Of a stretch of 64,000 bases of DNA, positions 3,001 through 6,000 are shown in pieces. Within the stretch, counting starts at the first letter, position 1; each line of letters opens with the position of its first letter. This DNA is from Escherichia coli (GTDB lineage: Bacteria > Pseudomonadota > Gammaproteobacteria > Enterobacterales > Enterobacteriaceae): assembly GCF_003019035.1 (NCBI RefSeq), contig NZ_CP027447.1. One strand, given 5' to 3'. Position numbers: made by a program.

Positions 3001-6000
3001 TGTGGAAAAAACGAAAGCGCAATACTGGCCAACGCTCAGTATTCAGGGCGGCAAAACGCGCTACCAGACCAGTGACCGCTCGTATTGGGACGATCAGTTA
3101 CAACTGAACGTTAACGCGCCGCTGTATCAGGGCGGCGCAGTTTCAGCCCAGGTGCAACAGGCTGAAGGGCAACAAAAAATCTCTGCCTCGCAGGTCGAAC
3201 AGGCAAAACTGGATGTGCTGCAACGAGCGTCTGTGGCATATGCCAACTGGACAGGCGCACGGGGTCGCGAAGAAGCCGGTTTAGCACAATCCGAAAGTGC
3301 GCACAAAACGCGAGATGTGTACCAAAATGAATATAAATTGGGCAAACGCAGTCTGAATGATCTATTAACCGTCGAGCAAGATGTCTTTCAGGCGCAATCG
3401 GCTGAAATAAATGCCAATTATGATGGCTGGGTCGCCGCCGTAAATTATGCCGCTGCGGTGAATAACCTTATTCCATTAGCGGGAATTAAACAGGGCTTAT
3501 ACAACGACTTACCCGACTTGAAATAATCCTGCCATTATTAATAGTGGGGCGTTGTTAAGTGATTACCTTTGTCTTATTTAGATAAATGGACTCGCTAAGG
3601 ATATGCGCCATTTATCAGGAATGCCATTATGAGCCTGATTATTGATGTTATTTCGCGTAAAACATCCGTCAAACAAACGCTGATTAATCCTGGCGACGTC
3701 ACGGTTGTTATTTATGAGCCTTCCGTGGTGCAGGTTCATGCTCAGGCCTCTGCCGTTGCGCGTTACGTCCGTGAAGGAAATGACCTGCTGATCTATATGC
3801 AGGACGGCACGGTGATCCGCTGCAACGGTTATTTCCTGCAAGCGGCGAATACCGCTGAACAATCGGAACTGGTGTTTGCCGATGGACAACAGCTCACCCA
3901 CGTCACCTTTGCCGATACTGCTGCGGGTGGATTAGCCCCCGTAGAACTGACTGCCCAGACCACCGCGATTGAAAGCATTGCGCCATTTCTTGATACCGTT
4001 GCTCAGACCAGCACCTTCCCGTGGGGATGGCTGGCGGGGGCGGCGGTAGGCGGTGGCGCGCTTGGTGCACTGCTGGCAAGCGGTGGCGATGGCGACTCGA
4101 AAACAGAAGTGATTAATAACCCTCCGCCACCCGCTGAGCCTGGCAACGCCACACCATCATTTTTAGTTACCGATAATCAGGGCGATCAGCGCGGCATTCT
4201 CGCCACCAATGACATCACCGATGACACCACGCCAACCTTTAGCGGCAGCGGGCAGGCGGGGGCGACTATTCAGATTAAAGACAGTAACGGCAATACTATT
4301 GCCAGTACTCAGGTAGACAACAACGGTCAGTGGAGTGTCTCGTTACCCACGCAAAGTGCAGGTGAACATACCTGGTCAGTGGTGCAAATTGTCGGCAGTA
4401 CCATCACTGACGCCGGTTCGATAACGTTAACCATCGACAATAGTCAGGTCAGCGTGCAGGTTGCCACCACCGCAGGCGATAACATTATTAACGCCAGCGA
4501 ACAGGCCGCCGGGTTTACGTTTTCTGGCACCAGTAGCCATCTGGCGCAGGGAACAGAACTCACCGTTACGCTAAACGGCAAAACCTACACCACCAACGTA
4601 GGCGCTAACGGTGCCTGGAGCGTGCAGGTGCCGACCGCCGATGCACAGGCGTTAGGCGAAGGGAATCAAGCGGTGCTGGTCAGTGGGAAAGACGCCACAG
4701 GCAATACGGTCACTGGCGCGCAGCTGCTAACGGTCGATACCCAACCGCCAACGCTTGCCATCAACACCATCGCTCAGGACAACATCATCAGTGCTGCGGA
4801 ACATAACGTCGCGCTGGTACTGAGCGGCACGTCGAATGCAGAAGCGGGGCAAACCGTAACACTGACCGTCAACGGGAAAAGCCATACAGCAACCGTCGGT
4901 AGCGACGGAACCTGGCAAGTGACGCTGCCTGCCACGGAAGTCCAGGTACTGGCGGAGGGTAATTACGCTGTCAATGCCAGCGTCAGCGATCGGGCAGGGA
5001 ACAGCACCAGCCACAGCGCGAATTTCACGGTAGACACCTCAGCACCCGTGGTCAGTGTTAATACCGTGGCGGGCGACGATATTCTTAATAATGCCGAGCA
5101 GGCCGTCGCGCAGATCATCTCCGGACAAGTTAGCGGTGCTTCTCCTGGCGATACGGTAACGGTGAAATTGGGCACTCATGTCCTGACGGGCATCGTGCTG
5201 GCAGATGGCAGCTGGAATGTGGCACTGGACCCGGCGGTAACCCGCACGCTGGATCGCGGAGCCAATACGATTTTCGTCACCGTGACAGATGCTGCAGGAA
5301 ATACCGGCGCGGCGTCTCGGGCAATCACGCTGGTCGGTGTTTCTCCGTTGATCACCATTAACACCGTCTCCGGCGATGACATTATCAGTGGCGCAGAAAA
5401 AGGTGCGCCACTGACCCTTACCGGTAGCACTCAACAGGCCGAGACAGGACAAACCGTCACAGTAACCCTGGCTGGACAGAGTTTTACCACTACCGTACAG
5501 GCCGATGGCTCCTGGAGTCTGACGGTACCTGCCGCCGCGATGGGAAATCTGCCTGACGGCGCGGTGGCGATTACCGCTTCTGTGACGGATCTCAGCGGCA
5601 ATACCGGCAACACCTCCCGCACCATTACTGTCGACAGCCAGGCCCCGGCCTTAAGCATCGACTCGCTGACTGCCGATAACATCATCAACGCCGCCGAAAG
5701 CGGGCAGGATCTTCCCATCACCGGCACCACCGACGCCCAGCCGGGGCAGACGGTGACCGTTACGCTTAACGGGCAGACGTATCAGGGCATCGTGCAGTCA
5801 GACGGCACCTGGAGCGTGACCGTTCCCGCCGCCAACGTTGACGCACTGGCTGACGGCAATGCTACGGTCACCGCCAGCGTGAACGATGTCGCCGGTAACC
5901 CGAGCAGCGTTTCACGCGTGGCGCTGGTCGATGCCACGCCGCCGGGGGTAACCATTAATCCGGTGGCGACCGATAACGTCATCAATACGCCGGAACATGC

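What the first reader, a model, noticed from the sequence alone, without database searches (positions are those of the whole stretch)
3629..4150. LapA-type N-terminal retention module with a TAAG dialanine motif, but no LapG/LapD genes in the window
Residues 97-100 of the giant protein are T-A-A-G (nt 3917-3928), inside a roughly 130-aa N-terminal module followed by a Gly-rich hydrophobic stretch (TFPWGWLAGAAVGGGALGALLASGGDGD). In Pseudomonas LapA and related adhesins a TAAG-type dialanine at about residue 100 is the cleavage site for the periplasmic protease LapG, under c-di-GMP control through LapD. No LapG-like or LapD-like gene lies next to this cluster, so either the partners are encoded elsewhere, another protease is used, or the motif is vestigial.
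Basis: partly seen in the sequence, partly recalled or inferred. Interest (0 to 1): 0.7.

Follow-up and report, generated by a model that had tools for sequence, protein, structure and literature searches.

The report
BapA-type adhesin anchor with chance TAAG
The start of this giant E. coli surface adhesin (SiiEA, O-island 28) is an already catalogued BapA-type anchoring domain, and its "TAAG" motif is most likely a coincidence, not a LapG protease site, because E. coli shows no LapG/LapD genes and close relatives lack the motif.

Summary
Residues 97-100 of the 6925-aa ORF (3629..24406) are T-A-A-G (nt 3917-3928). They lie in a ~130-aa N-terminal module that is followed by a Gly/Ala-rich hydrophobic stretch, and no lapG or lapD lies in the window.

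- The gene is E. coli siiEA (O-island 28, between ybaT and cueR). Its N-terminus belongs to the curated BapA_N family (PF22783, NF033677, NF047714), not to the LapA retention-module family (NF033682; hhalign probability 5.5%).
- Genuine LapG substrates carry helix, then DP, then [T/A/P]AAG, then a Gly-rich coil, and this is invariant across the family. SiiEA has no helix and no DP. In the AlphaFold model its TAAG sits in the least conserved loop, between two strands of the fold.
- The motif is fixed within E. coli but missing from the nearest homologues (Enterobacter, Pantoea, Citrobacter, Dryocola).
- lapG-lapD DNA from five Enterobacterales species matches none of 5,426 complete E. coli genomes, while a control at 66% identity recovers all 958 siiEA-positive genomes.
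- LapG loci carry LapA-type modules (13 of 80) and never BapA_N modules (0 of 80).

Most likely this is a LapG-independent plug-and-linker anchor for a LssB/LapB-subfamily type I secretion system. It is ordinary and already known.

The parts
2171..3526 (+). [quoted passage not shown]
   Evidence: NCBIfam TIGR01844 type_I_sec_TolC, 412 bits against a cutoff of 225. RefSeq names it 'TolC family outer membrane protein'. The same position upstream of or next to the adhesin gene is seen in related loci.
3629..24406 (+). siiEA, a giant BapA-related type I-secreted adhesin (6925 aa), intact in this window
   Evidence: ORF list. NCBIfam NF047714 adhesin_SiiEA. RefSeq gene name siiEA, present in 958 of 5,426 complete E. 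coli genomes. The C-terminus carries GGxGxD-like repeats. The locus is O-island 28, shown to be needed for adherence and colonisation in EHEC (PMC12758282).
3641..4024 (+). BapA_N 'prefix-like' N-terminal domain (residues 5-132), predicted beta-sandwich at residues 3-114; inferred periplasmic or cytoplasmic plug
   Evidence: Pfam PF22783, E = 9.4e-20, residues 5-132. NF033677, 72 bits against a cutoff of 35. AlphaFold2 model: mean pLDDT 83 overall and 92-98 over most of residues 1-120, with eleven strands. All of the 50 listed (best) AFDB50 structural neighbours are BapA-prefix-type adhesin N-termini, and none is named a retention-module (LapA-type) protein.
3911..3940 (+). Variable loop, residues 95-104, between predicted strands 89-94 and 105-114; contains the motif
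   Evidence: Lowest information content in the module: 1.17 bits per column, against 2.13 for the beta core and 2.13 for the hydrophobic stretch. Strand boundaries come from the AF2 model.
3917..3928 (+). T97-A98-A99-G100, the motif in question; judged a coincidental match to the LapG consensus
   Evidence: Sequence. Invariant in five E. coli alleles, with three synonymous codon differences. Absent at the aligned position in Enterobacter, Pantoea, Citrobacter, Dryocola and most other family members.
4013..4096 (+). Gly/Ala-rich hydrophobic stretch (residues 129-156, TFPWGWLAGAAVGGGALGALLASGGDGD); inferred to thread through or seal the TolC-family channel
   Evidence: Conserved across the family (WGW...GGG...GALLA; G143 is at least 90% conserved). 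pLDDT is below 50. The highest Kyte-Doolittle 19-residue mean is 1.40, which is hydrophobic but below the usual transmembrane threshold of about 1.6.
4121..4132 (+). PPPP (residues 165-168), the end of the linker before the first Ig-like domain
   Evidence: Translation. The first Big_13/Big_6 Ig-like domain starts at about residue 181.
24410..26572 (+). Type I secretion ABC permease/ATPase (hlyB28 equivalent), LssB/LapB subfamily
   Evidence: TIGR03375 type_I_sec_LssB, 837 bits against a cutoff of 693. It is 32% identical over 653 aa to the ABC exporter of the Superficieibacter lapG-lapD locus, which hits the same model at 953 bits.
26569..27744 (+). HlyD-family periplasmic adaptor (hlyD28 equivalent); its stop codon overlaps the cueR start codon (ATGA)
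   Evidence: TIGR01843, 328 bits. Sequence at 27741-27744.

Best explanation
This is the N-terminus of E. coli SiiEA, the giant adhesin of O-island 28, exported by its own TolC/ABC/HlyD type I secretion system. Residues 1 to about 120 form a BapA-type 'prefix-like' beta-sandwich. Residues 121 to about 175 form a disordered linker with a conserved Gly/Ala-rich hydrophobic core and a PPPP stretch. The proposed mechanism is inferred by analogy with LapA and MpIBP. The protein leaves C-terminus first. The pre-folded N-terminal domain cannot pass the TolC-family channel. The linker occupies the channel, so the Ig-repeat stalk stays tethered to the cell surface. The TAAG at residues 97-100 lies in the most variable loop of that domain and is a chance match to the LapG consensus. 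It is not a LapG site, and tethering of this adhesin is not under LapG/LapD c-di-GMP control. What is shown here: the identity of the gene and domain family, the lack of conservation of the motif, the missing helix/DP context, and the absence of lapG/lapD in the window and of detectable lapG/lapD DNA in E. coli genomes. What is inferred: the plug-and-linker retention, and where the N-terminal domain ends up.
For: Identity:
- The window region is 100% identical to E. coli SCU-301, the gene is named siiEA, and it lies between ybaT and cueR.
- It hits NF047714, NF033677 and PF22783.
- The island is OI-28, which is required for adherence and colonisation (PMC12758282).

Not LapA-type:
- NF033682 retention_LapA gives no hit even at E <= 10, although it scores 149 bits on a LapA-like sequence and 119 bits on the adhesin next to lapG-lapD in Superficieibacter.
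- hhalign of 44 BapA_N modules against 32 real LapA-type modules gives a probability of 5.5%.

Site context:
- Validated LapG substrates have a targeting helix, then DP, then [T/A/P]AAG, then a Gly-rich coil (PMC13090378 text and supplement).
- In real LapA-type modules D99, P100, A108, A109 and G110 are invariant.
- 14 of 17 LapA-type N-terminal ORFs in the fetched loci (15 of them in the 13 LapG loci) have DP-x(3-12)-[TAP]AAG.
- SiiEA reads ...LTHVTFADTAAGGLAPVELT..., with no helix and no DP. AF2 places strands at 89-94 and 105-114 on either side of the motif.

Conservation:
- The loop at residues 95-104 is the least conserved segment.
- Only 3 of 112 non-E. coli family N-termini have the motif there.
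- The nearest genera lack it.

Partners:
- A LapG HMM hits 80 of 80 LapG loci but nothing in the window, about 20 kb of further E. coli flank upstream of it, or nine BapA_N loci with 10-kb flanks.
- A BapA_N HMM hits 0 of 80 LapG loci, whereas a LapA-type HMM hits 13 of 80.
- lapG-lapD DNA from Citrobacter werkmanii, Klebsiella sp., Leclercia, Superficieibacter and Pectobacterium finds nothing in 5,426 E. coli genomes.
- The same method with E. cloacae DNA at 66% identity finds all 958 siiEA-positive genomes.
- tblastn of LapG against 72,556 plasmids finds 122 records, with no Escherichia among the ten genera listed (13 further genera were not named).

Machinery: the ABC exporter is in the LssB/LapB subfamily and the locus has a dedicated TolC-family gene.
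Against: - Exact TAAG at about residue 100 is the canonical LapG sequence and position, and is expected by chance in only about 1% of shuffles.
- The motif is invariant across E. coli alleles that differ by 11.5% in DNA, with three synonymous changes in its codons. This fits purifying selection, although the whole module is 94-98% identical there.
- The Desulfovibrio adhesin DvhA, a proven substrate of the LapG-like protease DvhG, has an N-terminal domain that weakly resembles BapA_N (Pfam i-E 0.005; hhalign probability 34%). Its PAAG lies at a similar distance after the conserved core. A BapA_N-like fold therefore does not rule out LapG-type cleavage.
- The E. coli genome search was done at the DNA level. 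A very divergent BTLCP protease would be missed.
- The position of the loop inside the fold rests on a predicted model, with pLDDT of about 83 in that block.
- No experiment shows that BapA_N domains retain their adhesins.
Confidence: 0.72

Rival explanations
1. The TAAG is a working LapG-type cleavage site. A LapG/LapD pair, or a divergent BTLCP protease, is encoded elsewhere in siiEA-positive E. coli or is supplied by co-resident bacteria, and it releases SiiEA when c-di-GMP falls.
For: Canonical TAAG at the canonical distance from the N-terminus. The T1SS is of the LssB/LapB subfamily with its own TolC-family gene. The motif is invariant within E. coli. DvhA shows that a BapA_N-like domain can precede a LapG-type site.
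Against: There is no lapG/lapD in the window or its flanks. Five enterobacterial lapG-lapD queries match none of 5,426 E. coli genomes, with a positive control. No Escherichia is among the ten genera named for the plasmid tblastn hits; 13 further genera were not named. There is no targeting helix or DP motif. The motif is absent from the nearest homologues. LapG loci never carry BapA_N adhesins in 80 loci. The published inventories of E. coli GGDEF/EAL proteins, as summarised in PMC5635171, name no LapD-type receptor.
Confidence: 0.04
2. The TAAG is a relic. An ancestor of SiiEA was regulated by LapG/LapD, the regulators were lost in the Escherichia lineage, and the site has not yet decayed.
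For: Some Enterobacteriaceae do carry lapG-lapD: Citrobacter werkmanii, Leclercia, Superficieibacter, Pseudocitrobacter and a Klebsiella sp.. Scattered family members have a similar motif in the same loop: P0135 FADTAAGD and P0074. The weak BapA_N-DvhA link also fits.
Against: In those Enterobacteriaceae the adhesin next to lapG-lapD has a LapA-type module with DPTQxLEATAAG, not a BapA_N module. The closest SiiEA homologues lack the motif, so it looks derived in Escherichia rather than ancestral. Its frequency in the family (3 of 112) is at or below what the Ala-rich loop composition predicts. None of nine BapA_N loci is linked to LapG.
Confidence: 0.08
3. The exposed Ala/Gly loop is cut by another periplasmic protease, not a BTLCP, giving LapG-independent release of SiiEA.
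For: The loop is predicted to be surface-exposed and less confidently modelled than its flanks. The amino acids are conserved within E. coli despite synonymous change. Some route for release of a tethered adhesin is plausible.
Against: There is no evidence of processing in any data available here. The loop sequence is not conserved in the family, so such a mechanism would be specific to E. coli. Cutting inside the fold would leave strands 105-114 attached and need not free the plug.
Confidence: 0.07
4. The hydrophobic stretch (residues 129-152) is a true membrane-spanning helix that anchors the N-terminus in a membrane, so tethering is not by a plug in the TolC-family channel.
For: It is a 21-24-residue uncharged stretch rich in Gly, Ala and Leu with GxxxG-like spacing. 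It is as conserved as the beta core across the family.
Against: The Kyte-Doolittle maximum is 1.40, below the usual threshold of about 1.6. AF2 gives no helix and pLDDT below 50. LapA-type adhesins have an analogous Gly-rich segment after the cleavage site that is thought to lie in the channel. Type I substrates do not use the Sec/YidC insertion routes; this last point is general knowledge and was not tested.
Confidence: 0.1

Closest known systems
E. coli O-island 28 T1SS/RTX adhesin system (tolC28, rtxA28/rtxB28 = z0609/z0615, hlyB28, hlyD28); NCBI name 'BapA-related adhesin SiiEA'
   Same: It is the same locus: between ybaT and cueR, with the same gene order and 97.8% DNA identity at the N-terminus to O157:H7. 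It was shown to be required for epithelial adherence and early colonisation and to be activated by RstA and Ca2+ (PMC12758282).
   Different: In O157:H7 the adhesin gene is broken, annotated as a truncated pseudogene and treated as two RTX genes in the paper. Here it is one intact 6925-aa ORF. The paper does not analyse the N-terminal module or any processing.
Salmonella BapA and the BapA_N 'prefix-like' domain family (Pfam PF22783, NCBIfam NF033677)
   Same: The N-terminal domain is a significant member. It shares the adhesin + TolC-family + ABC + HlyD gene set (the TolC-family gene lies upstream here and downstream in the bapA-type loci), the conserved GNDL..DG..FF core, the hydrophobic Gly-rich stretch and the Ig-like repeats. 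The Kluyvera bapA-type locus next to smpB has the same organisation.
   Different: SiiEA is only 30-35% identical to the BapA-clade N-termini and is about twice as long. The TAAG is peculiar to the Escherichia/Shigella branch.
Pseudomonas fluorescens LapA / LapG / LapD (BTLCP-linked T1SS adhesins; NF033682, NF045674, NF045673)
   Same: Overall logic: a giant Ig-repeat adhesin, an N-terminal folded domain followed by a Gly-rich segment, an ABC exporter of the same TIGR03375 subfamily, a dedicated TolC-family channel, and a [T/A/P]AAG tetrapeptide near residue 100.
   Different: The N-terminal sequence family is different. The targeting helix and DP motif are missing. The motif is not conserved. 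lapG/lapD were not found nearby or in E. coli genomes.
Desulfovibrio vulgaris DvhA / DVU1545 with DvhG / DvhD
   Same: The N-terminal beta domain has a weak, sub-threshold resemblance to BapA_N. A [P]AAG lies about 20 residues after the conserved core.
   Different: DvhA has a helix (DAFLTAFNAEL) directly before PAAG and Gly-rich coil directly after it. dvhG and dvhD lie in the same operon (PMC13090378). SiiEA has none of these.
Salmonella SiiE (SPI-4), the source of the name
   Same: A giant Ig-repeat, Ca2+-binding, T1SS-secreted adhesin that is held at the surface through its N-terminal region without LapG (PMC12607715).
   Different: The SiiE N-terminus has coiled-coil heptads between beta segments, and its retention involves SiiA/SiiB. 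SiiEA has a BapA_N domain, and no siiAB-like genes are annotated in the window.
Marinomonas primoryensis ice-binding adhesin MpIBP, region I anchor
   Same: It is cited as the first described membrane-anchoring N-terminal domain of this kind and as a broadly conserved feature of surface-displayed adhesins (PMC13090378). The plug-plus-linker idea is the same.

Membership tests
LapG-cleaved, LapA-type retention module (BTLCP-linked T1SS adhesins) | N-terminal domain matches the retention-module profile (NCBIfam NF033682) | tested here: not met
   No hit even at E <= 10. The model scores 149 bits on a LapA-like sequence and 119 bits on the Superficieibacter adhesin. hhalign of A1 against A3 gives a probability of 5.5%.
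LapG-cleaved, LapA-type retention module (BTLCP-linked T1SS adhesins) | [T/A/P]AAG tetrapeptide about 80-130 residues from the N-terminus | tested here: met
   T97-A98-A99-G100, nt 3917-3928.
LapG-cleaved, LapA-type retention module (BTLCP-linked T1SS adhesins) | Targeting helix and 'DP' turn immediately before the scissile motif (PMC13090378) | tested here: not met
   The sequence before the motif is QQLTHVTFAD, with no DP. AF2 predicts a strand at 89-94 and no helix. Real modules have ..LQQAIAAGxDPTxxxEATAAG, with D99 and P100 invariant.
LapG-cleaved, LapA-type retention module (BTLCP-linked T1SS adhesins) | Motif lies after the folded domain and is followed directly by an unstructured Gly-rich segment | tested here: not met
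   AF2 places two further strands (105-107, 109-114; pLDDT 93-97) after the motif. The Gly-rich stretch starts 29 residues later. This rests on a predicted model.
LapG-cleaved, LapA-type retention module (BTLCP-linked T1SS adhesins) | Dialanine conserved among homologues | tested here: not met
   Conserved within E. coli. Absent in Enterobacter, Pantoea, Citrobacter and Dryocola homologues, and present in only 3 of 112 other family N-termini. The loop is the least conserved segment.
LapG-cleaved, LapA-type retention module (BTLCP-linked T1SS adhesins) | LapG (PF06035 / NF045674) encoded in the genome, usually near the adhesin or its T1SS | tested here: not met
   Absent from the window and flanks. 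lapG-lapD DNA from five Enterobacterales species finds nothing in 5,426 E. coli genomes, with a positive control at 66% identity. The plasmid tblastn listed no Escherichia among its ten named genera; 13 further genera were not named. Caveat: a very divergent BTLCP would escape a DNA-level search.
LapG-cleaved, LapA-type retention module (BTLCP-linked T1SS adhesins) | LapD-type c-di-GMP receptor (PF16448 / NF045673) encoded in the genome | tested here: not met
   Same searches as for LapG; the queries covered lapD. No GGDEF/EAL gene is annotated in the window. The E. coli GGDEF/EAL inventories as summarised in PMC5635171 name no LapD-type receptor.
LapG-cleaved, LapA-type retention module (BTLCP-linked T1SS adhesins) | Exported by a LapB/LssB-subfamily ABC transporter with a dedicated TolC-family channel (LapE-like) | tested here: met
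   TIGR03375, 837 bits against a cutoff of 693. TIGR01844, 412 bits. 32% identity to the ABC exporter of a real Lap locus.
LapG-cleaved, LapA-type retention module (BTLCP-linked T1SS adhesins) | Ca2+-dependent cleavage between the two alanines, abolished by AA to RR | not testable with these tools
   This needs the reporter assay of PMC13090378 or N-terminal sequencing of released protein.
BapA-type prefix-like N-terminal domain (Pfam PF22783, NCBIfam NF033677) / SiiEA (NF047714) | Significant match to the family profiles above their curated cutoffs | tested here: met
   PF22783, E = 9.4e-20, residues 5-132. NF033677, 71.8 bits against a cutoff of 35. NF047714, 448.5 bits against a cutoff of 425.
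BapA-type prefix-like N-terminal domain (Pfam PF22783, NCBIfam NF033677) / SiiEA (NF047714) | Placed at the extreme N-terminus of a giant Ig-repeat protein encoded with TolC-family, ABC and HlyD genes | tested here: met
   Window gene order. Five of the nine related loci carry the full TolC-family, ABC and HlyD gene set beside the adhesin gene, a sixth has T1SS genes upstream, and three show none within 10 kb.
BapA-type prefix-like N-terminal domain (Pfam PF22783, NCBIfam NF033677) / SiiEA (NF047714) | Predicted fold groups with other BapA prefix-like domains | tested here: met
   AFDB50 Foldseek: the 50 listed (best) hits are BapA-prefix-type adhesin N-termini (most named BapA prefix-like, the rest adhesins or unnamed), with E down to 1e-28 and TM-score (query-normalised) 0.5-0.74.
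BapA-type prefix-like N-terminal domain (Pfam PF22783, NCBIfam NF033677) / SiiEA (NF047714) | Domain acts as a retention plug for the secreted adhesin | not testable with these tools
   Inferred from the architecture only. No experimental report for BapA_N was found in the papers searched.

The most novel reading that the evidence does not exclude
BapA_N-type adhesins such as SiiEA might form a second, LapG-independent class of type I 'stalled-secretion' anchors. A beta-sandwich plug plus a conserved glycine-zipper-like hydrophobic segment would hold the protein in its TolC-family channel. In E. coli the exposed TAAG loop might have been recruited as a release site for a protease other than LapG, or for LapG supplied by neighbouring species in the gut.
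Probability: 0.06. Interest if true: 0.6.

Novelty: already known. Interest (0 to 1): 0.2.

Why it matters
If the motif were a working LapG site, an adhesin needed for EHEC colonisation would be under c-di-GMP-controlled proteolytic release in a species thought to lack that circuit. That would be a real surprise. The evidence points the other way.

The practical lessons are two. First, a [T/A/P]AAG near residue 100 is not enough to call a LapG substrate; the helix-DP context, family-wide conservation and presence of the protease all need checking. Second, BapA_N adhesins, including the E. coli OI-28 adhesin and Salmonella BapA, appear to be tethered, if they are tethered at all, without LapG/LapD. 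How they are held and released remains an open, modest question.

Tried and rejected
- The word-indexed protein search with residues 1-170 returned only E. coli/Shigella fragments. The exhaustive representative search was needed to reach other genera.
- The key LapA papers (PMC5869472, PMC6112007, PMC8966053) are not held. The Collins et al. preprint has no supplementary species list held. The held part of the Chem Rev review does not contain the relevant passages.
- I tried to reach lapG through the neighbours of Pseudomonas LapA-type N-termini. This failed because lapG/lapD lie beyond the far end of the giant gene or at another locus.
- The LapG profile search of the protein database was saturated by Pseudomonas in the 120 rows shown and said nothing about E. 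coli.
Absence of Escherichia among its 80 loci is therefore only weak evidence, which is why the five DNA searches with a positive control were run.
- A LapA N-terminal sequence recalled from memory was used only as bait to retrieve real database sequences. All conclusions rest on the retrieved sequences and on sequences printed in the supplement of PMC13090378.
- I first took L059:5923-8115 for the ABC exporter. It is a GGDEF-EAL protein, so the comparison was redone with the true exporter in L069.
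Full report
**What is there**

The window is E. coli chromosome. Bases 2100-4700 are 100% identical to strain SCU-301, and the same stretch occurs once in 958 of 5,426 complete E. coli genomes. RefSeq annotation and NCBIfam give the order glsA, ybaT, a TolC-family gene (2171..3526), siiEA (3629..24406, 6925 aa), a type I secretion ABC permease/ATPase (24410..26572), a HlyD-family adaptor (26569..27744), then cueR. This island is O-island 28 of EHEC O157:H7 (z0608, z0609/z0615, z0634, z0635). 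A 2025 study showed it is needed for epithelial adherence and early colonisation and is activated by RstA and Ca2+. That study did not examine the N-terminus (PMC12758282).

**The observation**

ACT GCT GCG GGT at 3917-3928 encodes T97-A98-A99-G100. The hydrophobic Gly/Ala stretch TFPWGWLAGAAVGGGALGALLASGGDGD is residues 129-156. No lapG or lapD is annotated in the window or in about 20 kb upstream of it, and a LapG HMM finds nothing in six-frame ORFs. TAAG is unique in the protein. In shuffles of residues 1-170 it falls between residues 70 and 150 in 1.1% of cases, and the degenerate [TAP]AA[GV] does so in 6.9%. The description is therefore accurate and, on its own, mildly unexpected.

**Which family the module belongs to**

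Pfam places residues 5-132 in BapA_N (PF22783, E = 9.4e-20). NCBIfam gives NF047714 (SiiEA, 448.5 bits) and NF033677 (BapA prefix-like, 72 bits). NCBIfam also has a separate model for the LapA module, NF033682 'retention module-containing protein'. It gives no hit on SiiEA even at E <= 10. It scores 149 bits on a LapA-like bait and 119 bits on the adhesin next to lapG-lapD in Superficieibacter.

I retrieved 120 real LapA-type N-termini and 147 BapA_N-type relatives. A profile-profile comparison of the two alignments gives a probability of 5.5%. All of the 50 listed (best) AFDB50 structural neighbours of the AlphaFold model are BapA-prefix-type adhesin N-termini, and none is named a retention-module protein. 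No solved structure matches.

**The context of real LapG sites**

PMC13090378 defines the substrate as follows: a beta-rich retention domain, a targeting helix, a conserved DP, then [T/A/P]AAG with the scissile Ala-Ala, then a segment without structure. Its supplement prints the validated peptides:
- LapA: ..ELQQAIAAGVDPTTALESTAAGPSAAG
- MapA: ..IQKAIAAGDDPTKTAEATAAGPGATGG
- CraA: ..IQQAILDGVDPPTALEAAAAGAGAGG
- FrhA: ..ILAALEEGADPTALDDLAPAAGGLQG
- DvhA: ..DAFLTAFNAELLPAAGPGAGGG

In my alignment of 32 real modules, D99, P100, A108, A109 and G110 are invariant down to about 35% identity. Of 17 LapA-type N-terminal ORFs in the fetched loci (15 of them in the 13 LapG loci), 14 have DP-x(3-12)-[TAP]AAG.

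SiiEA reads ..GQQLTHVTFADTAAGGLAPVELTAQTTAIESIAPFLD.., with no DP. The AlphaFold2 model (44-sequence alignment, mean pLDDT 83) has strands at 89-94, 105-107 and 109-114 and no helix before the motif. The TAAG therefore sits in a loop inside the predicted beta-sandwich, 29 residues before the Gly-rich stretch.

**Conservation**

The motif is invariant in five E. coli alleles, including one at 88.5% DNA identity. Three synonymous differences fall in its codons. The whole module is 94-98% identical there, so this says little.

Outside Escherichia/Shigella the nearest relatives (45-60% identity) read FANADAAVGVTP, FADAGDASGVAV, FTDAGEVAGVAA, FDETGDIASLDA and FTENGTLIDGQG at that position. They come from Enterobacter cloacae, Pantoea, Citrobacter amalonaticus and Dryocola. 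Of 112 non-E. coli N-termini, only three have [TAP]AA[GV] in the aligned loop. Other matches fall inside the Gly/Ala-rich hydrophobic stretch. The loop at residues 95-104 has the lowest information content of the module: 1.17 bits per column, against 2.13 for the beta core, 2.64 for the GNDL..DG..FF core and 2.13 for the hydrophobic stretch.

**The partners**

None of nine BapA_N loci from diverse hosts, each with 10-kb flanks, has PF06035 or PF16448.

A scan of one genome per species with a LapG alignment returned 80 loci. The seven are Citrobacter werkmanii, Pectobacterium, Leclercia, Superficieibacter, Pseudocitrobacter (two loci) and a Klebsiella sp.

HMMs built here give a clean cross-tabulation:

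| HMM | LapG loci (80) | E. coli window/flanks and nine BapA_N loci |
|---|---|---|
| LapG | 80 | 0 |
| BapA_N | 0 | all |
| LapA-type module | 13, including every enterobacterial locus with enough flank | 0 |

The C. werkmanii genes score as true LapG (347 bits against a cutoff of 320) and LapD (1017 bits).

lapG-lapD DNA from five Enterobacterales species gave no match in 20,395 records of 5,426 complete E. coli genomes. The same blastn mode with E. cloacae tolC/siiEA-like DNA (66% identity) recovered exactly the 958 siiEA-positive genomes. tblastn of LapG against 72,556 plasmids found 122 records, mainly Vibrio and rhizobia.

**How it most likely works**

The ABC exporter belongs to TIGR03375 (LssB), the same subfamily as the exporter in a real Lap locus (32% identity). 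The island also has its own TolC-family gene. By analogy with LapA and MpIBP, the adhesin is exported C-terminus first. The BapA_N beta-sandwich cannot enter the channel. The linker of about 50 residues (hydrophobic Gly/Ala core, then PPPP) lies in the channel. This step is inferred and not shown.

The hydrophobic stretch is conserved but scores 1.40 on a 19-residue Kyte-Doolittle window, and it is modelled as coil. A true transmembrane helix is therefore a minor rival.

**What keeps the LapG idea alive**

- The tetrapeptide and its position are canonical.
- DvhA, a proven substrate of a LapG-like protease, has an N-terminal domain with sub-threshold similarity to BapA_N (Pfam i-E 0.005; hhalign probability 34%).
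- The genome-wide search was at the DNA level, so a very divergent BTLCP could be missed.

I put all cleavage readings together at under 20%.

**Verdict**

The module is a known, curated BapA-type N-terminal domain in a known E. coli adhesin locus. Its TAAG is best explained as a lineage-specific coincidence in a variable Ala-rich loop. Interest is low.

Noticed in passing
window 3629-24406: The giant ORF is intact here. In the near-identical RefSeq record NZ_CP051751.1 (99.94% identity, 7 gap openings over 26.2 kb) it is annotated as five separate CDS. These are probably homopolymer or indel errors in that assembly, or real frameshifts in that strain.
   Followed up: partly
window ~6351-9412 and ~15339-18391: Two segments of about 3.1 kb inside siiEA are 74.6% identical at the DNA level. 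This is a large internal duplication of a block of Ig-like repeats.
   Followed up: no
window 28352-30572: Between cueR and ybbJ lie a 338-aa gene annotated 'YadA family autotransporter adhesin' (28828..29844, minus strand; weak hits to the EmaA/Vomp C-terminal anchor) and small hypothetical ORFs. From memory of the K-12 gene order this is a second small insertion next to the adhesin island.
   Followed up: no
window 27741-27744: The stop codon of the HlyD-family adaptor overlaps the cueR start codon (ATGA). The copper regulator could therefore be read through from the secretion operon.
   Followed up: no
window 39340-40320: An IS621 (IS110-like) transposase gene sits between ybbP and mnmH, and a dinQ type I toxin is annotated nearby in the matching RefSeq record.
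   Followed up: no
L011 (E. coli O157:H7 N8B7-2), siiEA: In O157:H7 siiEA is annotated as an incomplete pseudogene lacking its C-terminus. Yet PMC12758282 reports adherence phenotypes for z0609 and z0615 treated as two RTX genes. How a split adhesin without a contiguous C-terminal secretion signal would work is not explained.
   Followed up: no
Desulfovibrio vulgaris DvhA residues 29-88 (sequence from PMC13090378 supplement): The retention domain of this proven LapG-type substrate has BapA_N as its only, sub-threshold, Pfam hit (i-E 0.005). hhalign gives a probability of 34% over the GNDL..DG..FF core. This hints that BapA_N and some LapG-substrate retention domains are remote relatives.
   Followed up: partly
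L069 13221-13900 (Superficieibacter electus); also L068, L072, L075, L076: Enterobacteriaceae that do have lapG-lapD carry, immediately downstream, an adhesin with a canonical LapA-type module (DPTQxLEA[T/P]AAG). In Superficieibacter it is followed by a long Asp-Ala/Asp-Ser dipeptide repeat. L072 and L075 have two such adhesin starts each.
   Followed up: partly
L004 (Pseudomonas sp. EL_65y_Pfl2_R95): A SiiEA-like BapA_N adhesin (46% identity at the N-terminus) with the same TolC-adhesin-ABC-HlyD layout occurs in a Pseudomonas, next to a chaperone-usher fimbrial operon. This suggests horizontal spread of the cassette.
   Followed up: no
L006 (metagenome contig SRR5240379_1320): A 3850-aa BapA_N adhesin lies next to TraI/TraD/TraG conjugation genes and H-NS-like genes, with no T1SS genes within 10 kb. 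This looks like a plasmid- or ICE-borne copy.
   Followed up: no
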